DNA from: Rhodoferax sp.
Lineage (GTDB): Bacteria > Pseudomonadota > Gammaproteobacteria > Burkholderiales > Burkholderiaceae_C
Assembly: GCA_052390055.1 (NCBI GenBank)
Contig: JBQTHH010000062.1
Span: 310-64,309, forward strand
DNA: 64,000 nucleotides
Reading direction: 5' to 3'
A program made the position numbers and the translations under genes. The notes under the pieces were generated by a model that saw only the letters and a list, made by a program, of their open reading frames with translations, was not told the DNA's origin and made no database searches. Below, in pieces: positions 2,872 through 58,143 of the stretch. Each line of letters starts with the position of its first letter. The stretch's first letter is position 1.

Positions 2872-2951
2872 GTGCTGCCTCTCCTTGTCTGTCTTGTATC
2901 GGTATGGGTTGCGTCCACCGGGGTGGCGCCGCGCCAGTGTAGCAATCTGGC

Positions 2952-3000
2952 TGCTATAAAATGTATAGCTGCTTAATCAATATTCATGCGGGCCAATGGC
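2952..3000 (+). repeat. Dispersed 49-nt AT-rich palindromic element, copy A (intergenic)
   Basis: TGCTAT AAAATGT ATAGC TGCTTAATCAATATT CATGCGGGCCAATGGC; aligns without gaps to four other copies. Confidence 0.75.
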
Positions 3001-3034
3001 TGGAAAGCACCTTCTTTCGGGGCGCCGGGCACGC

Positions 3035-6237: not shown

Positions 6238-7044
6238 TCAGACGCGCTCGAACACCAGGTCCCACACCCCGTGGCCCAGGCGCAGGCCGCGCTTTTCGAA
6301 TTTGGTCAGCGGGCGGTAGTGGGGCTTGGGGGCGTAGCCGTTGAGGTCCGGGTGGCTGGCCAGAGCACGGTTCTTGAGCAGGGCTTCGGCACCAAGCACT
6401 TCCAGCATCTGCTGGGCGTAGGGCTCCCAGTCGGTGGCGCAGTGGATGTACCCGCCCACCTTGAGCCGCGCGGCCAGCTTGGCCACCAGCGGCGGCTGGA
6501 TCAGGCGGCGCTTGTGGTGGCGGGTCTTGTGCCAGGGGTCGGGGAAGAAGATGTGCACGCCGTCCAGGCTCTGTTCGGGCAGCATGTGGTCGATCACCTC
6601 CACCGCGTCGTGGGCACAGATGCGGATGTTGCTCAGGCCCTGTTCGCCAATGCGCTTGAGCAGCGCGCCCACGCCGGGCTCGTGCACCTCGCAGCACAGG
6701 AAGTCGGTCCCGGGCAGCACGCCGGCGATGTGCGCAGTGGCTTCGCCCATGCCGAAGCCGATCTCCAGCACGCGCGCTGGAGGCGCCGTTGTTTGTAAGC
6801 CTTTTTCGGCCCTGGCCCGCGTGGAATATGCGAATGCTGCTTCGAAATCAATAGCATCCTGTTGGTAGGGCAGGAGGAACTGCGGCCCCCAGAGTTCGAA
6901 CGCGCGGGACTGCCCGGTGGTGGTGCGTCCGGCGCGCTTGACAAAGCTTTTGACGGTGCGCAGGAAGGGCGTCTGCTGCACCTGGAGCGGGTCTTGTGCT
7001 GGGGCCGCCAGAGGGGCGGGGGAGCTGTGTTGGGGGTCTGTCAT
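6238..7044 (-). CDS. trmB: tRNA (guanine-N7)-methyltransferase
   Basis: [45 protein letters not shown] motifs. Confidence 0.96.
6808..6856 (-). repeat. Dispersed 49-nt element, copy B, inside trmB coding sequence
   Basis: Minus strand TGCTAT TGATTTC GAAGC AGCATTCGCATATTC CACGCGGGCCAGGGCC; encodes [16 protein letters not shown]. Confidence 0.75.
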
Positions 7045-12264: not shown

Positions 12265-12277
12265 TTGCCATCGCTAT

Positions 12278-12326
12278 TGCTACCGTTTTTGTAGCAATCA
12301 ATTCCATTCGGACGCGGGATAAGCCA
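12278..12326 (+). repeat. Dispersed 49-nt element, copy E (intergenic, downstream of alaS)
   Basis: TGCTAC CGTTTTT GTAGC AATCAATTCCATTCG GACGCGGGATAAGCCA; same 6-7-5-15-16 layout, more diverged. Confidence 0.6.
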
Positions 12327-27179: not shown

Positions 27180-27181
27180 AA

Positions 27182-27205
27182 AAAAGCCGCATGGGAGCGG
27201 CTTTT
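27182..27205. terminator. Bidirectional intrinsic terminator
   Basis: AAAAGCCGC-ATGGGA-GCGGCTTTT between convergent genes. Confidence 0.75.
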
Positions 27206-27236
27206 GCTGTTCCACGGGTGCGTGGGTCGGGCGGGT

Positions 27237-28025
27237 TCAGGCCTGGTCCACCACGGCCACGGCCGAGTTGCTCACGCCGCAGTCCACATAGGCGATCTGG
27301 CCAGTCATGCCGGAGGACAGGTCGCTGAACAGGAAGGCGGCCACGTTGCCCACTTCCTCGATGGTGACGTTGCGTTTGAGCGCCGAGGCGCTGGCCGAGA
27401 TGGAGAGCAACTTGCCAAAGTCCTTGATACCGCTGGCGGCCAGGGTCTTGATGGCGCCGGCGCTGATGCCGTTGACGCGGATGCCCTTTTCGCCCACGGC
27501 GTCGGCCAGGTAGCGCACCGAGGCTTCGAGCGAGGCCTTGGCCAGGCCCATGGTGTTGTAGCTGGGCACTACGCGCACCGCGCCGAGGTAGCTCAGGGTC
27601 AGCAGCGAGGCGTTGGGGGTGAGGTAGGGCAGGGCGGCCTTGGCCATGGCCGGGAAGCTGTAGGCGCTGATGTCGTGGGCGATGCGGTAGTTCTCGCGTG
27701 TCAGGCCGTCCAGAAAGTTGCCGGCAATCGACTCGCGCGGCGCGTAGCCGATGCTGTGCACGAAGCCGTCGAACGTGGGCCAGTGTTGGGAGAGGTCGGC
27801 AAACAGCTTGGCGATCTGCTCGTCGCTGCCCACGTCGCAGTCGAACACCAGTGAGGAGCCGAACTCGGCGGCGAACTCGGTAATGCGGTCTTTGAAGCGC
27901 TCGCCCACGTAGCTGAAGGCCAGCTCGGCGCCTTGCGCGTGGCAGGCCTTGGCGATGCCGTAGGCGATGGAGCGGTTGGACAAGACGCCCGTGATCAAAA
28001 ACTTCTTACCTGTCAGAAAACCCAT
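27237..28025 (-). CDS. fabI: Enoyl-ACP reductase (NADH)
   Basis: ITGVLSNRSIAYGIA, YNTMGLAKASLE, GAIKTLAASGI. Confidence 0.97.
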   Translation of the reverse strand: MGFLTGKKFLITGVLSNRSIAYGIAKACHAQGAELAFSYVGERFKDRITEFAAEFGSSLVFDCDVGSDEQIAKLFADLSQHWPTFDGFVHSIGYAPRESIAGNFLDGLTRENYRIAHDISAYSFPAMAKAALPYLTPNASLLTLSYLGAVRVVPSYNTMGLAKASLEASVRYLADAVGEKGIRVNGISAGAIKTLAASGIKDFGKLLSISASASALKRNVTIEEVGNVAAFLFSDLSSGMTGQIAYVDCGVSNSAVAVVDQA

Positions 28026-30941: not shown

Positions 30942-31995
30942 AACCCCCGCACCCCAGAGCCCGGCGCGCCGGGCCTGGCGCCGTTTCGCCCGCAACCGGC
31001 TCGGGCTGTGGAGCCTGTGGCTGTTCCTGGCCCTGGTGGGGGTGAGCCTGTGCGCCGAGCTGGTGTCCAACGAGCGCCCGCTGGTGGTGCGCTACCAGGG
31101 CCAGTGGTACTGGCCCATGCTGCAGGACCACCCCGAAACCCGCTTTGGCGGTGATTTCGCCACACCCGCCGACTACCTCGACCCCTTCATCCAGCAGCAA
31201 CTGGCACAAGAGGGCAACTGGGCCTTGTTTGCCCCCAACCGCTACGGCCCCAAGACGCTGAATTACTTCGCCCCCAGCCCGAACCCGGCCCCGCCCAGCG
31301 CCGTCAACTGGCTGGGCACCGACGACCGCGGGCGCGACCTGCTGGCGCAGTTGCTCTACGGCTTTCGCGTCAGCGTGCTCTTTGGCCTGGCGCTCACGGC
31401 CACTGGCGTGCTGCTGGGCGTGCTCACCGGGGCGCTGCAGGGCTACTTTGGCGGAAAAACCGATTTGCTGGCCCAGCGCCTGATTGAAGTCTGGGCGTCC
31501 ATGCCCGAGTTGTACCTGCTCATCATCTTCTCGGCCCTGTTCGCTCCCAGCGTGGCGCTGCTGCTGGTGCTGTTGAGCCTGTTTGGCTGGATGGGGCTGG
31601 GCGACTACGTGCGCGCCGAATTCCTGCGCAACCGGCAGATGGACTACGTGCGCGCGGCGCGCGCGCTGGGCGTGTCGCACTGGCGCATCATCACCCGCCA
31701 CCTGCTGCCCAACAGCCTCACGCCCGTGGTCACCTTTTTGCCTTTTCGCATGAGCGGCGCCATTCTGGCGCTGACCTCGCTGGACTTTCTGGGCCTGGGG
31801 GTGCCGCCGGGCACGCCCTCGCTGGGTGAGCTGCTGTCGCAGGGCAAGGCCAATATCGACGCCTGGTGGATTTCGCTGTCCACCTTTTTTGTGCTGAGCC
31901 TCACGCTGTTGCTGCTCACCCTGATGGGCGACGCGCTGCGCGATGCGCTCGACCCGCGCAAGGCCATGGAAGGGGGGGCGAGCGATGGCTCCTGA
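30925..31995 (+). CDS. yejE: ABC transporter permease (YejE-like)
   Basis: AELVSNERPL, WLGTDDRGRDL, RAEFLRNR, PSLGELL; GTG start assumed. Confidence 0.88.
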   Translation: MSRSIETPAPQSPARRAWRRFARNRLGLWSLWLFLALVGVSLCAELVSNERPLVVRYQGQWYWPMLQDHPETRFGGDFATPADYLDPFIQQQLAQEGNWALFAPNRYGPKTLNYFAPSPNPAPPSAVNWLGTDDRGRDLLAQLLYGFRVSVLFGLALTATGVLLGVLTGALQGYFGGKTDLLAQRLIEVWASMPELYLLIIFSALFAPSVALLLVLLSLFGWMGLGDYVRAEFLRNRQMDYVRAARALGVSHWRIITRHLLPNSLTPVVTFLPFRMSGAILALTSLDFLGLGVPPGTPSLGELLSQGKANIDAWWISLSTFFVLSLTLLLLTLMGDALRDALDPRKAMEGGASDGS

Positions 31996-33601
31996 TGCTC
32001 CAGGCACGGCCCCCCTGCTGCAGGTGCAGGGCCTGCGGGTCGCCTTTGGCGGGCACGAGGTGGTGGCGGGCGTGGATTTCGCCGTGCAACCGGGCGAGCG
32101 CGTGGCCTTGGTGGGCGAGTCCGGCAGCGGCAAGTCCATCACCGCGCTGAGCCTGCTGGGCCTGCATGGCGAGGCACGTGTGGGCGGCAGCGTGCGCTGG
32201 GCGCCCGACGGCGCGGCACCGCGCGAGCTGCTGGGCCAAAGCCCGCGCCAGTGGCAGGCCCTGCGCGGGCAGGACATTGCCATGGTGTTCCAGGAGCCCA
32301 TGACGGCCCTCAATCCGGTTTTCACCATTGGCCGCCAGATTGCCGAGATATTGGAGCTAAAACAGGCATTGGCCCGCGTGGATGCTTACCAGCGTGCTAT
32401 TGAATTGCTAGCAGAAACAGGCATCCCAGAGCCCGAACGGCGCATCCATGCCTACCCGCACCAGCTCTCCGGCGGGCAGCGCCAGCGCGCCATGATCGCC
32501 ATGGCGCTGGCCTGCCGCCCGCGCCTGCTGCTGGCCGACGAGCCCACCACGGCGTTGGACGCGGGCCTGCGCCTGCAGATTCTGGAGCTGCTGCAGCGCC
32601 TGCAGCAGCAGCATGGCATGGCGGTGCTGCTCATCAGCCACGACCTGCCGCTGGTGCGCCGCTTTGCCCAGCGGGTGCTGGTAATGGACCATGGCGTGCT
32701 GGTGGAGTCCGGTCCCACCGATCAAGTGCTGCGCGCGCCCCGCCACCCGGTCACCCAGGCGTTGGTGCATTCGGCCCCGCAGCGCCAGGTGGTCCCTGCC
32801 GCGCCCCAGGCCCCGCTGGCCCTGGGCCTGCAGGGGCTGAAGGTGTCCTACCCCGTGCCGCGCCCGGGCTGGCGGGGCTGGTTTCGCAAAGGCGCCTTCA
32901 TGGCTGTGCAGGGCGCGCACCTGGCCTTGCGCCAGGGGCAGACGCTGGGCCTGGTGGGCGAATCCGGCAGCGGCAAGTCCACCGTGGCGCTGGCGGCGCT
33001 GCGCCTGCTCCCCTGCGAGGGGACGGTGCGGGTGGGTGCGCAGGACTGGCCCGCCAAGGGGCCCGACCTGGCCTTGCGCCGACAGGTGGGGGTGGTGTTC
33101 CAGGATCCGTTTTCTTCCCTGTCGCCGCGCATGACCGTGGGCCAGATCGTGGGCGAGGGCCTGGAGGTGCACGAACCGCAGCTGGGTGCCAACGAGCGCC
33201 GCCAGCGCGTGGCGCAGCAGTTGGAGCGTGTGGGCATGGGCCCGAGCCAGGTGGCCGGGGTGCTGGAGCGCTATCCGCACGAGTTCTCCGGCGGGCAGCG
33301 CCAGCGCATCGCCCTGGCGCGCGCCCTGGTGCTGCAGCCCCGCGTGCTGGTGCTGGACGAGCCCACCAGCGCGCTGGACGCCACCACGGCGCAGCAGGTG
33401 ATCGCCTTGCTGCAGCAACTGCAGCGCGAGCACGCCCTGAGCTACCTGCTCATCACCCACGACGTGGCCGTGGTGGGCGCCATGGCCCACGAGGTGGCGG
33501 TGATGCATGCGGGCGAGGTGGTGGAGCAGGGGCCCTGGGAGGCGGTTTTTGCGCAGCCCAGCCACCCCTACACGCGCGAACTGCTGACGGCGGCGCATTG
33601 A
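31985..33601 (+). CDS. yejF: ABC transporter ATP-binding protein with two NBDs (YejF-like)
   Basis: Two GESGSGKS, two LSGG/FSGG signatures, DEPT Walker B twice. Confidence 0.92.
   Translation: MAPDAPGTAPLLQVQGLRVAFGGHEVVAGVDFAVQPGERVALVGESGSGKSITALSLLGLHGEARVGGSVRWAPDGAAPRELLGQSPRQWQALRGQDIAMVFQEPMTALNPVFTIGRQIAEILELKQALARVDAYQRAIELLAETGIPEPERRIHAYPHQLSGGQRQRAMIAMALACRPRLLLADEPTTALDAGLRLQILELLQRLQQQHGMAVLLISHDLPLVRRFAQRVLVMDHGVLVESGPTDQVLRAPRHPVTQALVHSAPQRQVVPAAPQAPLALGLQGLKVSYPVPRPGWRGWFRKGAFMAVQGAHLALRQGQTLGLVGESGSGKSTVALAALRLLPCEGTVRVGAQDWPAKGPDLALRRQVGVVFQDPFSSLSPRMTVGQIVGEGLEVHEPQLGANERRQRVAQQLERVGMGPSQVAGVLERYPHEFSGGQRQRIALARALVLQPRVLVLDEPTSALDATTAQQVIALLQQLQREHALSYLLITHDVAVVGAMAHEVAVMHAGEVVEQGPWEAVFAQPSHPYTRELLTAAH
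32365..32413 (-). repeat. Dispersed 49-nt element, copy C, antisense inside the ABC ATPase gene
   Basis: Minus strand TGCTAG CAATTCA ATAGC ACGCTGGTAAGCATC CACGCGGGCCAATGCC. Confidence 0.75.
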
Positions 33602-43758: not shown

Positions 43759-44861
43759 CGGAACACGTGGTAGCCCAGGTGTGTGGCAGGGTGGGGTGCC
43801 TCACCCTCAACCGGGCGCAAGCGCTCAACGCCTTGAGCCTGGACATGATCCGCAGCCTCACGCGCCACCTGCTGGCTTGGCAGACGGACCCCGCCATTGA
43901 GGCGGTGGCCATCCGGGGCAGCAACAAGCACGGGGTGTTCGGTGGCTTCTGCGCCGGGGGCGACATCCGCTTTTTCCACCAGGCGGCGCTGGCGGGCAAC
44001 CCGGCCCTGGACGACTTCTTCACCGAGGAATACAGCCTCAACCACCTCATCCACCACTACGGCAAGCCCTACATCGCCTTCATGGACGGCGTGGTCATGG
44101 GTGGCGGCATGGGCATCAGCCAGGGCGCCAGCCACCGGCTGGTGACCGAGCGCAGCAAGCTGGCCATGCCTGAGACCAACATCGGCCTCTTCCCCGACGT
44201 GGGCGGCGGCTACTTCCTGAGCCGCTGCCCCGGCCATGCGGGGGAATGGCTGGCCCTGAGCGGCGAAGTGATCAGCGCCGACCAGGCCTGCGCATGGGGT
44301 CTGGCCGACCACGTCCTGCCCAGCGAGCGGCTGGCGGCCGCCTGGGACGCCTTGCTGGCCCTGCCCCGCATTGACGCGGCCGCGCTGGAGTCCTGGATTG
44401 CTATGTTTTCAATAGCAAAAGGACAAGATTCCACGCGGGCCAATGCCCATTTTGATGCCATGAATGCGGTGTTTGGGCTGGACAGCGTGGGCGCCATGGT
44501 GCGCGCGCTCGAAGCCATGCCCGGCGAATGGGCGGCGCACACCCTGGCGGTGCTGCGCAAGCGCTCACCGCTGATGTTGCATGTGGTGCTGGAGCAGGTG
44601 CGCCGCGCGCGCGGCATGGGACTGGCAGACGACCTGCGCATGGAACGCGACCTGGTGCGCCACTGCTTCTGGACCGCCCACCTGGAGCGCAGCGGTGCGC
44701 ACAGCGAAACGGTGGAAGGGGTGCGTGCCCTGGCCGTGGACAAGGACCACAGCCCGCGCTGGAACCCGGCGCGCATCGAAGACGTGACCCCGGACATGGT
44801 GGCGCCTTTCTTCACCAGCCCCTGGCCCGCCTTTGCGCACCCCTTGCGCCATTTGAACTGA
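43755..44861 (+). CDS. Enoyl-CoA hydratase/isomerase family (3-hydroxyisobutyryl-CoA hydrolase-like)
   Basis: LNRAQALNAL, FCAGGDI, MGGGMG, AMPETNIGLFPDVG, EGVRALAVDKD. Confidence 0.92.
   Translation: MTEHVVAQVCGRVGCLTLNRAQALNALSLDMIRSLTRHLLAWQTDPAIEAVAIRGSNKHGVFGGFCAGGDIRFFHQAALAGNPALDDFFTEEYSLNHLIHHYGKPYIAFMDGVVMGGGMGISQGASHRLVTERSKLAMPETNIGLFPDVGGGYFLSRCPGHAGEWLALSGEVISADQACAWGLADHVLPSERLAAAWDALLALPRIDAAALESWIAMFSIAKGQDSTRANAHFDAMNAVFGLDSVGAMVRALEAMPGEWAAHTLAVLRKRSPLMLHVVLEQVRRARGMGLADDLRMERDLVRHCFWTAHLERSGAHSETVEGVRALAVDKDHSPRWNPARIEDVTPDMVAPFFTSPWPAFAHPLRHLN
44399..44447 (+). repeat. Dispersed 49-nt element, copy D, inside the hydratase-family gene
   Basis: TGCTAT GTTTTCA ATAGC AAAAGGACAAGATTC CACGCGGGCCAATGCC; encodes AMFSIAKGQDSTRANA. 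Confidence 0.78.
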
Positions 44862-57406: not shown

Positions 57407-58143
57407 GCAGTGACCCCCTCATCTTCTGCTTCGACAAACTGGCCGTTGATGTCGAGCTCGTACCAGACGCCAGGCCTGATGCCGTTGTCGCCGACCTTGC
57501 TGGCACGAATGTGGGTGATGTTGCCGTCGCTGTCCCGATGCACGAGCACAATGGCCCCCGTCTCTCCAGCCATTGCCCGTCCTTCGCGGCCGCAGGCAAT
57601 GGCCACAGAGTGTTTTCCGGTGCTGCTGGCCGCGCCATAGTCCCCGGTGCTGCTGGCCGCGCCATAGTCCCCGGTGCTGCTGGCCGCGCCACGGGCCCCG
57701 GTGCTGCTGGCCGCGCCACGGGCCCCGGTGCTGCTGGCCGCGCCTTGGTACCCGGTGCTGCTGGCCGGTGAGTCAGGATCGATGGGGTTGCACCGGCTGC
57801 TGGTGTATTCGATGGCTGCCTTCACCAAGCCGGCAATGCTGATCTCGGCCATGATCGAAATCGACTTGCTGGCAACCTTCGTGTCACCATCGTGCCGGCT
57901 CAGGTCGCCGGATTGCTGGACGACAGCGAACCGATTGCCTGCTGGCGGGTAGTAGCGGAACACGTCCAGCGGGTACTCGCAAGCGTGAAATCCTGAATCG
58001 CACGCCTTGACAGCGCCGTCGTGCTTGAAGGTCTCCCCGACCTTGTACTTGAAGCCACGGCACTCCCATTTGTCGTTGAAGCCTTTGAATGACGTGATGC
58101 TTTCCTCGATGGCCTTCACTTTCTTCTTGGCCTTAGCGGTCAT
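57403..58143 (-). CDS. Phage protein with GAASSTGxx repeats
   Basis: FKGFN...CRGFKYKVGETF...GFHACEYPLDVFRYY domain, repeats, then NGIRPGVWYEL. Confidence 0.8.
   Translation of the reverse strand: MTAKAKKKVKAIEESITSFKGFNDKWECRGFKYKVGETFKHDGAVKACDSGFHACEYPLDVFRYYPPAGNRFAVVQQSGDLSRHDGDTKVASKSISIMAEISIAGLVKAAIEYTSSRCNPIDPDSPASSTGYQGAASSTGARGAASSTGARGAASSTGDYGAASSTGDYGAASSTGKHSVAIACGREGRAMAGETGAIVLVHRDSDGNITHIRASKVGDNGIRPGVWYELDINGQFVEAEDEGVTA
57617..57766. repeat. 27-bp coding tandem repeat, 5 full units plus 1 partial
   Basis: ccggtgctgctggccgcgcc plus 7 variable nt at 57617, 57644, 57671, 57698, 57725; partial at 57752. Confidence 0.95.

What the first reader, a model, noticed from the sequence alone, without database searches (positions are those of the whole stretch)
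32351..32413. Element copy C is read antisense in the ABC ATPase and seems to replace a helix without changing its length
Seen: in the opposite orientation the element encodes LELKQALARVDAYQRAIELLA. The QIAE-to-GIP distance is 24 residues, the same as I recall for DppD/OppD-type ATPases. Inference: this is not a simple insertion. Either insertion was followed by a compensating deletion, or the element overwrote the native helix by conversion. Both strands of the element can therefore yield tolerated helical peptide.
Basis: partly seen in the sequence, partly recalled or inferred. Interest (0 to 1): 0.65.

Follow-up and report, generated by a model that had tools for sequence, protein, structure and literature searches.

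The report
Repeat motif overprinted on ATPase helix
A 60-base DNA motif that occurs about 300 times in this bacterium is spelled out inside a transporter ATPase gene using the gene's own codons, so the protein keeps its length and its helix while the DNA follows the species-specific version of the motif.

Summary
Window 32351-32413 is a full-length, gap-free copy of a dispersed AT-rich motif. The motif has an A/T run, the core GGCCAYTGGCCCGCGTGGAAT, a 13-nt spacer and GCTAY-N7-RTAGC, with about 286 copies in the genome. This copy scores nhmmer 49.5 bits and 43.7 bits with a covariance model built without it.

It lies in frame in the first ATPase domain of a YejF-like ATPase and encodes L123-A143. 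All 18 orthologs aligned show no indel here. Eight carry the motif in register (+27 to +49 bits). Nine complete orthologs and one fragment lack it (-45 to -94 bits).

The "replacement" is in the DNA, not the protein.
- Peptide identity to motif-free orthologs is as high here (0.42) as among motif-free orthologs themselves (0.46).
- RAIELLAE is ancestral (M. tuberculosis DppD has RAVELLAE) and is only recoded with rare A/T-ending codons (GC3 10/24 against 0.90).
- The copy's spacer and loop are the least family-like of 218 copies.

Copy C is not unique. About 28% of copies are intragenic, 81% of them in two frames. Net length change in 17 tested genes is about -12 to +16 codons, never the full footprint.

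At all seven intragenic sites compared, each genome's copy follows its own dialect. I read this as in-place overprinting kept up by concerted evolution. Insertion plus compensating deletion is unlikely. The function of the motif is unknown.

The parts
31985..33601 (+). Host gene: YejF-like double ABC ATPase (microcin C / peptide importer ATP-binding protein), 538 aa. It is the last gene of a yejA-B-E-F-like operon and is followed by rimP-nusA-infB.
   Evidence: ORF. Homologs are named 'microcin C transport system ATP-binding protein'. The same gene order is seen in L031, L036 and L037. Best PDB match is M. tuberculosis DppD 8wd9_D, E 2e-100.
32342..32427 (+). Full nhmmer footprint of copy C (profile positions 2-87), codons 120-148. 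The outer flanks carry little information.
   Evidence: 49.5 bits. The AT-rich dip in composition is seen.
32351..32413 (+). This covers the last turn of helix 115-127, the loop 128-130 and helix 131-144 of the helical subdomain of the first ATPase domain.
   Evidence: Translation. AlphaFold2 model m9c42ca23c663, with pLDDT 92-97 in this stretch.
32359..32362 (+). A-run block of the motif (AAAA), read as part of CTA AAA CAG.
   Evidence: In the family this block is either an A-run or a T-run.
32365..32383 (+). Core block GGCATTGGCCCGCGTGGAT, a perfect match to this genome's dialect. It is read as (Q)-A-L-A-R-V-D, the loop and N-cap of helix 2.
32384..32395 (+). Spacer (GCTTACCAGCGT; with T32383 it forms the 13-nt variable stretch). 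It is not family-like and encodes A-Y-Q-R, which resembles native A-x-Q-(A/R/K).
   Evidence: Spacer plus loop have the lowest nearest-neighbour identity of 218 copies: 0.60, against a family median of 0.75 and 0.68 for shuffled columns.
32396..32412 (+). Dyad block GCTAT-TGAATTG-CTAGC. The fifth pair is mismatched (T/C). It is spelled on the ancestral residues A-I-E-L-L-A using rare codons (GCT ATT GAA TTG CTA GCA).
   Evidence: G010 and G004 have the perfect form GCTAT-N7-ATAGC at the same codons, with a Leu to Ile change.
44393..44457 (-). Another intragenic copy, in an enoyl-CoA hydratase / 3-hydroxyisobutyryl-CoA hydrolase-like gene, frame A2. Net length change is 0 to +5 aa against motif-free orthologs.
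   Evidence: 66.1 bits.
6798..6862 (+). Another intragenic copy, in a TrmB-like gene on the minus strand, frame A2. Net length change is about +6 to +16 aa.
   Evidence: 57.6 bits.
2946..3010 (-). Another copy of the family. Whether it is coding was not examined.
   Evidence: 48.3 bits.
12272..12318 (-). Partial copy: the end of the core plus the dyad TTGCTAC-N7-GTAGCAA.
   Evidence: 20.5 bits, model positions 19-65.

Best explanation
**What copy C is.** Copy C is a DNA-level motif overprinted on pre-existing codons of the YejF-like ATPase. It is not an inserted peptide module.

**What happened.**
- In the ancestor of the sub-clade that carries the family, the family's conserved blocks came to be spelled on the native helix-loop-helix. 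These blocks are the A-run, the 17-25-nt core and the GCTAY/RTAGC dyad arms.
- The spelling used A/T-ending synonymous codons and a few conservative replacements (S to A, x to V, x to D/E, V to I).
- No change of length resulted.
- The positions the family leaves free (13-nt spacer, 7-nt loop) stayed native.
- This site was accessible because frame S2 of the motif reads L-A-R-V-[DE]-x5-A-[IT]-x2-[IV]-A. The native sequence G-L-S-R-x6-A-[IV]-E-L-L-A already fitted that pattern at L, R, A, [IV] and A.

**What keeps it there.** The same force keeps about 300 copies per genome matched to a lineage-specific dialect. It has since kept the site in step with the family, even at the cost of amino-acid changes: Arg131 here, Pro at the same codon in G010 and in one metagenome relative.

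**Shown:**
- family membership;
- zero indel;
- homology of the peptide to native orthologs;
- recoding with rare codons;
- old age of the event;
- each genome's copy following its own dialect at orthologous sites.

**Inferred:**
- That the motif arose in place, by short-tract gene conversion from other copies and/or biased fixation of point changes.
- That it acts as double-stranded DNA, as a recognition site. Its orientation relative to transcription is about even.

What recognises the motif is unknown.
For: 1. **True family member, full length, no gaps.**
2. **No indel in 18 orthologs.** Motif-bearing orthologs score +27 to +49 bits in register, motif-free ones -45 to -94 bits.
3. **The peptide is still native.**
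   - Region identity is 0.42 between motif-bearing and motif-free orthologs and 0.46 among motif-free ones; the rest of the protein is 0.63-0.65.
   - M. tuberculosis DppD has RAVELLAEAGLPDP where this protein has RAIELLAETGIPEP.
4. **Recoding.**
   - 11-12 residues are identical to motif-free orthologs, and most use A/T-ending, TTG or CTA codons here (CTG>TTG, GAG>GAA, CTG>CTA, GCC>GCT/GCA, ACC>ACA).
   - GC3 is 10/24 against 0.903, P 5e-9.
5. **Free positions are not family-like.** The variable part of copy C has the lowest nearest-neighbour identity in the family (0.60, rank 0 of 218). The family as a whole shows copy-derived similarity (0.740 against 0.682±0.003 for shuffled columns).
6. 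**The same pattern occurs elsewhere.**
   - In the TrmH-like methyltransferase the length is unchanged. Native AAPKNVV (GCA GCA CCC AAA AAC GTC GTC) becomes AATKNVV (GCT GCT ACA AAA AAT GTA GTA).
   - The hydratase, UvrA site 2, RpoN, C9_84483 and C28_1119 are within a few residues (-6 to +7 aa) of their motif-free orthologs.
   - No tested gene gains the 21-29 codons of the footprint; the maximum is +15/16.
7. **Concerted evolution.**
   - The G010 consensus core is CTGGCGCCCGTGG with a fixed spacer ATGCGCGAGCAGC. The core here is TTGGCCCGCGTGG.
   - At all 7 orthologous intragenic sites compared, each copy scores 14-43 bits higher with its own genome's matrix.
8. **The family tracks the site.** It is present in G000, G001, G003, G004, G010, G013, G014, G017 and G018. 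It is absent from G002, G005-G009, G011, G012 and G015. This matches the state of the yejF and pgi sites exactly.
9. **Frames.** 64 of 79 intragenic copies use the two frames that read the dyad arms as Ala-Ile / Ile-Ala. Sense and antisense copies number 35 and 44.
Against: - The event is old: orthologs at 63% identity share it. The founding step cannot be seen, and native-like residues at the free positions could have been regained by selection after a wholesale replacement.
- The family can make discrete inserts. NadB carries a clean 45-nt insert seen only in G000 among the genomes compared. ProA and KdtA gain 9-16 codons. An insertion mechanism therefore exists.
- Building about 50 bits of motif by point changes needs a strong drive. 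None has been identified.
- RecA-type conversion between 60-nt repeats that share only a 16-nt identical core should be inefficient.
- In the 89%-identical relative the core carries three changes (PWM 26.9 against 48.8). Maintenance is therefore not strict.
- In the gene tree the motif-bearing orthologs are not monophyletic, though monophyly is not rejected (AU p 0.18).
Confidence: 0.6

Rival explanations
1. **One-step overwrite by a donor copy.** This is the first reader's second option. A whole family copy (about 60-87 nt) replaced the equally long native stretch in a single conversion or templated-repair event. Selection on the protein then restored native-like residues at the positions the motif leaves free.
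For: - The family shows copy-paste relationships: 19 copies have a near-identical variable part, against 1.6 expected.
- Dialects at orthologous sites imply that sequence passes between copies or is driven in parallel.
- In G010 even the spacer of the yejF copy follows the G010 spacer, with 12 of the last 14 positions matching.
- The AT-rich footprint extends over 29 codons.
Against: - Copy C's spacer and loop are the least family-like of 218 copies. They encode residues shared with motif-free orthologs.
- Region identity to native orthologs is not lower than among native orthologs.
- A donor tract would first have put residues such as K-x-I or S-A-D-V where E-L-L and A-x-Q-R now stand.
Confidence: 0.2
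2. **Insertion followed by a compensating deletion.** This is the first reader's first option. A discrete unit of about 45-60 nt inserted in frame, and an equal length of adjacent native sequence was later deleted.
For: - Discrete inserts of 45-48 nt exist in NadB and ProA.
- Net gains in other genes range continuously from 0 to +16 codons, as if variable amounts of native sequence had been lost.
- YejF is probably dispensable, so an intermediate could have survived.
Against: - It would have to recreate, by accident and in register, the ancestral R-A-[IV]-E-L-L-A-E and the L..R spacing.
- The TrmH-like site shows the same retention of native residues with changed codons.
- None of the 18 orthologs shows an intermediate length.
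Confidence: 0.12
3. **Reverse direction.** The repeat family derives from this kind of ABC-ATPase helix. A gene fragment became the repeat, so the similarity of the peptides is ancestral.
For: The S2 translation of the consensus (L-A-R-V-E-x5-A-I-K-x-I-A; in G010 L-A-P-V-E-Y-A-Q/R-A-A-I) loosely resembles the OppD/DppD-type segment G-L-S-x-x-E-A-x-x-R-A-I-E-L-L.
Against: - The motif-bearing segment is compositionally foreign to the gene: GC3 0.36-0.64 against 0.70-0.88.
- Motif-free orthologs, including distant ones, do not match the DNA motif.
- The family's defining features (dyad arms, A/T runs) have no coding rationale.
- Copies are read equally in the mirror frame.
Confidence: 0.03
4. **Chance resemblance.** An AT-rich codon patch happens to look like the repeat.
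For: None beyond the fact that the native peptide was partly compatible with the motif.
Against: - E 8e-13 (nhmmer, genome-wide) and 7.6e-11 (covariance model built without this copy).
- 0 matches in shuffles.
- A difference of at least 72 bits from motif-free orthologs.
- The site follows its own genome's dialect in two genomes.
Confidence: 0.01

Closest known systems
DNA uptake sequences (USS of Pasteurellaceae, DUS of Neisseriaceae) in coding regions; Findlay & Redfield 2009, PMC2817400
   Same: - Hundreds of copies, both between and inside genes.
- Inside genes the motif is written on existing codons in preferred reading frames, and recurs as the same peptides in unrelated proteins.
- It sits at poorly conserved positions.
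- Related species carry their own dialects at shared positions (from my own knowledge of DUS dialects; not read here).
- All of these properties were seen here.
   Different: - The motif here is about 60 nt and composite: core, spacer, 5+5 dyad with a 7-nt loop, and A/T runs. USS and DUS have a 9-12-nt core.
- There are about 300 copies, not 1,000-2,000.
- Some copies are discrete 45-nt inserts (NadB).
- No link to competence or uptake has been tested.
- No uptake sequence is known to me in Comamonadaceae.
Rickettsia palindromic elements (RPE; Ogata et al. 2000, 2002, as summarised in PMC10969869)
   Same: A dispersed palindrome-containing repeat found in frame inside many unrelated housekeeping genes and translated as part of the proteins.
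   Different: - RPEs are about 100-150 bp and add a full extra peptide segment.
- Here the footprint is about 60 nt. Copy C adds nothing, and no tested gene gains the full footprint.
- The encoded peptide at copy C is the native one, recoded.
REP / palindromic units, BIMEs and REPINs with their RAYT transposases
   Same: - Short dispersed palindrome-containing repeats in hundreds of copies.
- Long-lived at conserved positions.
- The consensus is species-specific (from my own knowledge of the REP literature).
- Dialects and positional conservation were seen here.
   Different: - REPs are extragenic by definition, whereas about 28% of copies here are inside genes.
- The GTAG-headed long hairpin is absent: the stem is only 5 bp and its covariation is weak.
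- The single RAYT-like Y1_Tnp gene is present in genomes with and without the family.
HIP1 (GCGATCGC) of cyanobacteria, PMC5861425
   Same: A palindromic DNA word kept at high density inside coding regions through codon choice, with function unknown. This comes from the title and abstract seen.
   Different: HIP1 is 8 nt and far more abundant. It has no composite 60-nt architecture and makes no discrete inserts.

Membership tests
The genome's own dispersed 60-nt motif family | Core GGCCAYTGGCCCGCGTGGAAT, 13-nt spacer and GCTAY-N7-RTAGC dyad at fixed spacing, preceded by an A/T run | tested here: met
   - nhmmer 49.5 bits, E 8e-13.
- Covariance model built without this copy: 43.7 bits, all 65 positions, no gap.
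- One mismatch in the fifth dyad pair.
Rickettsia-type in-frame palindromic element (RPE-like insertion) | The element is read through in frame inside a functional gene | tested here: met
   - The frame is open and the ORF is intact at 538 aa.
- 9 synonymous against 1 non-synonymous difference to the 89% relative in this stretch, counted.
Rickettsia-type in-frame palindromic element (RPE-like insertion) | The element adds an extra peptide segment relative to orthologs that lack it | tested here: not met
   No indel in 18 orthologs. The peptide is homologous to native orthologs.
MITE | Terminal inverted repeats and target-site duplication | tested here: inconclusive
   - Only an internal 5-bp dyad was found; no terminal inverted repeats appear in the consensus.
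- The one clean insert (NadB) shows no obvious duplication (n = 1).
- No empty site was available for an intergenic copy.
REP / REPIN-RAYT system | Extragenic location | tested here: not met
   79 of 283 copies lie in open frames with coding-type GC3 on both sides.
REP / REPIN-RAYT system | Co-occurrence with a cognate RAYT (Y1_Tnp) gene | tested here: inconclusive
   A single Y1_Tnp-like gene is present in 18 of 19 genomes of the genus, with or without the family. There is no correlation, and cognate status cannot be judged.
Uptake-sequence-like overprinted signal (USS/DUS kind) | Inside genes the motif overlays existing codons in preferred frames without indels | tested here: met
   - Copy C.
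- Other genes.
- Frames.
- Not universal: NadB, ProA and KdtA gain 9-16 codons.
Uptake-sequence-like overprinted signal (USS/DUS kind) | Lineage-specific dialects at orthologous positions | tested here: met
   7 of 7 sites in both directions, with 14-43 bits in favour of the site's own genome.
Uptake-sequence-like overprinted signal (USS/DUS kind) | Short (9-12 nt) core present in about 1,000 or more copies | tested here: not met
   The motif is a roughly 60-nt composite with about 286 copies.
Uptake-sequence-like overprinted signal (USS/DUS kind) | Preferential uptake of motif-bearing DNA by competent cells | not testable with these tools
   This needs transformation or uptake assays.
ABC transporter ATPase, OppD/DppD/YejF type (host gene) | Two ATPase domains with Walker A, Q-loop, LSGGQ signature and Walker B, plus the oligo_HPY C-terminal region | tested here: met
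   - Pfam ABC_tran twice plus oligo_HPY on record.
- GESGSGKS, LSGGQRQR and LLLADEPT are visible.
- PDB 8wd9_D, E 2e-100.
- AlphaFold2 mean pLDDT 87.7.

The most novel reading that the evidence does not exclude
The 60-nt motif is a genome-wide recognition signal read as double-stranded DNA by a dedicated, co-evolving factor. That factor could be an uptake or recombination system, or a chromosome-organising protein. On this reading the signal spreads and is kept uniform by a molecular drive strong enough to rewrite codons in about 80 genes per genome. When the dialect shifts, the drive forces parallel amino-acid changes, such as Arg to Pro at YejF residue 131 and A-R-V to A-P-V in KdtA, UvrA and the TrmH-like protein. 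Copy C would then be a fossil-free example of a long composite signal overprinted on a structured protein helix. I know of no description of this for any signal longer than uptake sequences.
Probability: 0.3. Interest if true: 0.85.

Novelty: new variant of a known kind. Interest (0 to 1): 0.64.

Why it matters
- **Two layers of information in one stretch.** A long (about 60 nt) non-coding DNA motif can share nucleotides with a structured part of an enzyme, without any indel. DNA-level pressure, not protein function, then sets codon choice and even some residues there.
- **Annotation.** Such AT-rich patches in GC-rich genes should not be read as insertions, horizontal transfer or assembly errors.
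- **Evolution.** The family offers about 300 loci per genome that change in step. That makes it a natural system for measuring concerted evolution, or a drive acting against purifying selection.
- **Repeat biology.** It blurs the line between mobile repeats (RPE, MITE, REP) and overprinted signals (USS/DUS). The same family makes both discrete 45-nt inserts and length-neutral overlays.

Tried and rejected
- **Rfam.** A scan of the window at gathering thresholds found no family.
- **Exact core search in relatives.** Searching for TGGCCCGCGTGRA suggested the family was absent from relatives. This was misleading, because relatives carry another dialect. The covariance model found at least 133-150 copies in nine genomes.
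- **RAYT (Y1_Tnp) as cognate enzyme.** The gene is present in genomes with and without the family, so there is no correlation.
- **RNA structure.**
  - RNAalifold finds only a 3-5-bp stem.
  - Covariation of the fifth pair is not above shuffles, 63/500.
  - Mutual information shows only neighbour effects: A-run versus T-run.
  - Sense and antisense use inside genes is about equal.
  - An mRNA-level role is therefore unlikely.
- **Empty-site comparison with the 89% relative.** The only presence/absence difference in the 21-kb syntenic stretch sits at a synteny break, so no clean empty site or target duplication could be read.
- **Orientation versus local GC skew.** There is a moderate bias (141:82, P 9e-5). 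It is far weaker than for polar chromosome signals such as KOPS or Chi, and gene orientation may explain it. I did not pursue it.
- **Spacing.** Successive copies have CV 0.81, close to random.
- **Chance similarity and element-from-gene origin.** Both were considered and rejected; see the rival explanations.
Full report
**1. What is at the coordinates**

Window 32351-32413 lies in frame in the ORF 31985-33601 (+) and encodes LELKQALARVDAYQRAIELLA, residues 123-143.

The host is a double ABC ATPase of the YejF/DppD/OppD type.
- Sources name its homologs "microcin C transport system ATP-binding protein".
- In relatives the gene follows a solute-binding protein and two permeases, and precedes rimP-nusA-infB.
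- The best solved relative is M. tuberculosis DppD 8wd9_D, E 2e-100.

The stretch is a compositional island. GC falls to about 0.5 in a 0.7-0.8 background. GC3 is 10/24 codons against 0.903 in the rest of the gene. Binomial P is 5e-9, and this is the lowest 24-codon window in the gene.

**2. It is a real copy of a repeat family**

A 17-nt core search found 59 sites in the 4.26-Mb genome. A profile built from them found 286 sites at E below 1e-3.

The consensus has four parts:
- an A-run or T-run;
- the core GGCCAYTGGCCCGCGTGGAAT;
- a 13-nt variable spacer;
- the dyad GCTAY-N7-RTAGC, followed by A.

Copy C scores 49.5 bits, E 8e-13. A covariance model built without it gives 43.7 bits over all 65 positions, with no gap. 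Rfam has no such family. The window holds three more full copies and one partial copy.

**3. How the family sits in genes**

Of 283 copies that could be judged, 79 lie in a frame that is open through the copy and 180 nt on each side, with GC3 of at least 0.8 on both sides.
- 64 of these 79 use only two of the six frames.
- Frame S2 has 28 copies, copy C among them. Its peptide is ..ALARV[ED]x5A[IT]xx[IV]A..
- The mirror frame A2 has 36 copies, including the TrmB and hydratase copies of this window. Its peptide is ..A[IT]xxxAx5STRA[NG]..
- Both frames read the dyad arms as Ala-Ile / Ile-Ala.
- One frame per strand is closed by the TAG inside ATAGCA. This can be read directly from the consensus.
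- Sense and antisense copies are about equal (35 and 44). That argues against an mRNA-level role.
- The 5-bp stem shows no convincing covariation.

**4. Orthologs: no length change, and the motif is old**

I aligned 18 orthologs codon by codon (17 complete and one fragment, L014). None has an indel between the Q-loop region and LSGGQ.

Scored in register with a matrix built without copy C:

| Group | Orthologs | Score (bits) |
|---|---|---|
| Window copy | win | +48.8 |
| 89% relative | L031 | +26.9 |
| Three metagenome relatives (68-69%) | L036, L037, L038 | +37 to +44 |
| Three same-genus genomes (63%) | G001, G004, G010 | +30 to +33 |
| Motif-free | nine complete orthologs and the fragment L014 | -45 to -94 |

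- nhmmer finds the L031 and L036-L038 sites on its own.
- Motif-bearing orthologs show the same GC3 dip: 0.36-0.64 against 0.70-0.88 for their genes.
- In the gene tree they form two well-supported groups. Their monophyly is not rejected (AU p 0.18), so one old origin is compatible with the data.
- The covariance model finds the family in G000, G001, G003, G004, G010, G013, G014, G017 and G018.
- It finds none in G002, G005-G009, G011, G012 and G015. This matches the state of the yejF site exactly.

They do not.

**5. The protein was not replaced; the DNA was recoded**

- An AlphaFold2 model (mean pLDDT 87.7; 92-97 in this stretch) places residues 123-143 at the end of helix 115-127, the loop 128-130 and helix 131-144 of the helical subdomain.
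- In this 21-residue region, identity between motif-bearing and motif-free orthologs is 0.42. Among motif-free orthologs it is 0.46. The rest of the protein is 0.63-0.65 in both comparisons. The segment is as native as one can expect.
- M. tuberculosis DppD reads RAVELLAEAGLPDP where the window reads RAIELLAETGIPEP. The dyad block GCT ATT GAA TTG CTA GCA therefore encodes ancestral residues.
- Of the 11-12 residues identical to each of three motif-free orthologs, most differ only in codon, always toward the motif: CTG>TTG, GAG>GAA, CTG>CTA, GCC>GCT/GCA, ACC>ACA.
- The positions the family leaves free encode A-Y-Q-R and E-L, like the native A-x-Q-(A/R/K) and E-L.
- At the DNA level these 20 positions have the lowest nearest-neighbour identity of all 218 copies: 0.60, against a median of 0.75.
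- The family as a whole shows copy-derived similarity there: mean 0.740 against 0.682±0.003 for shuffled columns, and 19 near-identical pairs against 1.6 expected.

Copy C thus has family-perfect conserved blocks and native free positions.

**6. Copy C is not an exception**

I compared G000 hosts with motif-free orthologs (G005, G006, G011 and others).

| Host protein | Net length change (aa) |
|---|---|
| YejF | 0 |
| TrmH-like methyltransferase | 0 |
| UvrA site 2 | 0 to +5 |
| Hydratase | 0 to +5 |
| RpoN | -5 to +1 |
| C9_84483 | 0 or -6 |
| C28_1119 | +2 to +7 |
| Pgi | +5 |
| C49_25468 | +7 |
| KdtA | +9 to +12 |
| C61_90211 | +10 |
| C1_16513 | +11 or more |
| TrmB | +6 to +16 |
| ProA | +15/16 |
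| NadB | +15 |

Two linker sites, UvrA site 1 and FdsB (about -12 aa), were too variable to score.

- No gene gains the 21-29 codons of the footprint.
- In the TrmH-like gene the dyad half is the native AAPKNVV recoded: GCA GCA CCC AAA AAC GTC GTC becomes GCT GCT ACA AAA AAT GTA GTA.
- NadB carries a clean 45-nt insert running from core to dyad. Among the genomes compared it is seen only in G000.

The family therefore produces both discrete inserts in loops and length-neutral overlays in structured regions.

**7. Orthologous copies follow their own genome's dialect**

- Thirty G010 copies give the consensus AAATnGGCCTCTGGCGCCCGTGGAATATGCGCGAGCAGCTAYnAAATnnRTAGCAA.
- The core differs from G000 at two fixed positions (GGCGCCCG against GGCCCGCG). 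The spacer, which varies in G000, is fixed.
- I compared seven positionally orthologous intragenic sites: YejF, Pgi, KdtA, UvrA site 2, the hydratase, TrmH-like and TrmB. Each copy scores 14-43 bits higher with its own genome's matrix, in all 14 comparisons.
- At yejF this makes GCC CGC (Ala-Arg) here and GCG CCC (Ala-Pro) in G010 and in L038. The G010 spacer GCGCGAGCAGC appears at five of the seven G010 sites, inside unrelated genes.
- Hundreds of loci have therefore changed in step after the lineages split, overriding protein-level preference in places.
- Simple divergence of inserted copies does not produce this. It needs transfer of sequence between copies, or a common drive or selection from a recognising factor.
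- The peptide of copy C is under purifying selection: about 9 synonymous against 1 non-synonymous difference to the 89% relative in this stretch.
- The core in that relative has drifted, with three changes. Maintenance is therefore stochastic rather than strict.

**8. Interpretation**

The best reading (0.6) is in-place overprinting.
- The motif's conserved blocks were imposed on a native helix-loop-helix that already fitted frame S2 at L, R, A, [IV] and A.
- The means were short-tract conversion and/or biased fixation of point changes.
- The same homogenising force that creates the dialects keeps the blocks in place.

The rivals are:
- a one-step overwrite by a donor copy, later re-adapted (0.2);
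- insertion plus compensating deletion (0.12). This has to recreate ancestral residues in register and has no intermediate-length allele among 18 orthologs;
- origin of the family from an ABC helix (0.03);
- chance (0.01).

What reads the motif is unknown.
- A RAYT-like Y1_Tnp gene does not correlate with the family.
- Orientation is moderately biased with local GC skew (141:82, P 9e-5).

**9. Comparison with known systems**

- The behaviour inside genes is that of DNA uptake sequences: preferred frames, overlay of codons, recurrent peptides, placement at poorly conserved residues, and dialects (PMC2817400). The motif, however, is five times longer, composite, ten times rarer and sometimes inserted. 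Uptake has not been tested.
- It resembles Rickettsia palindromic elements in being translated inside many housekeeping genes (PMC10969869). It fails their defining property of adding a full peptide segment.
- It resembles REP/BIME/REPIN in copy number, persistence and species-specific consensus. It is not extragenic, however, and it lacks a correlated RAYT.
- I found no paper describing such a family in Comamonadaceae.

Notes from earlier agents of this scan reach similar readings, both on this genome and on two other Comamonadaceae genomes. I treated them as leads.

**10. Verdict**

The helix, however, is the native one recoded, not a foreign one swapped in.
- Novelty: a new variant of a known kind, an overprinted genomic signal.
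- Interest: 0.64.

Noticed in passing
G000 contig C1:46834-46909 (NadB): A clean 45-nt in-frame insert running from core to dyad (GATGCTATCGAATCAGGAGCACCAGAAGCACATTCCACGCGGGCC). It is present in G000 and absent from G003, G005, G010, G011 and G014. No obvious target-site duplication. This looks like the youngest event seen and the best place to study how the family inserts.
   Followed up: partly
G010 (complete genome), 133+ copies; loci L067-L096: In G010 the 13-nt spacer is nearly invariant (ATGCGCGAGCAGC), whereas it varies in G000. The conserved stretch there is about 31 nt, long enough for homologous recombination. Inside genes it yields the recurrent peptides ..EYARAA.. and ..SARAAPETIA..
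   Followed up: partly
whole genome G000: The motif's orientation correlates with local GC skew: 141 copies lie with the G-rich strand and 82 against it (Fisher P 9e-5). Whether this reflects the direction of replication or only gene orientation was not separated.
   Followed up: no
G000 C6:85677-85964 and one locus in 18 of 19 genomes of the genus: A single conserved RAYT-like Y1_Tnp gene (about 240 aa) is present across the genus, whether or not the repeat family is present. It scores lower (28-37 bits) in G000, G001, G004, G009 and G010 than in most others (43-53 bits).
   Followed up: no
window 57590-57794: A tandem array of seven 27-nt units (CCGGTGCTGCTGGCCGCGCCATAGTCC-like), probably a 9-residue peptide repeat on one strand.
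   Followed up: no
L031:5158-5233 (89% relative, GCA_040960315.1) vs window ~27180-27247: The relative has a family copy directly after the stop codon of the short-chain dehydrogenase gene, next to a terminator-like hairpin. The window has no copy there, and synteny breaks at exactly this point: a different upstream gene follows.
   Followed up: partly
G010 and G014 orthologs of FdsB and RpoN (L182, L180, L176): Some orthologous sites carry only the dyad half of the motif, for example ATEFIAS, or GCTCC-TCATTCG-ATAGC in G010 rpoN, without a recognisable core. These half-sites could be decaying copies or copies still being built.
   Followed up: no
G000 contig C100:17948-22300: One very long UvrA-like ORF (a duplicated UvrA of about 1,900-2,200 aa, also found in relatives) carries two family copies in opposite orientation. 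In G011 the linker at the first site is about 34 aa longer for another reason.
   Followed up: no
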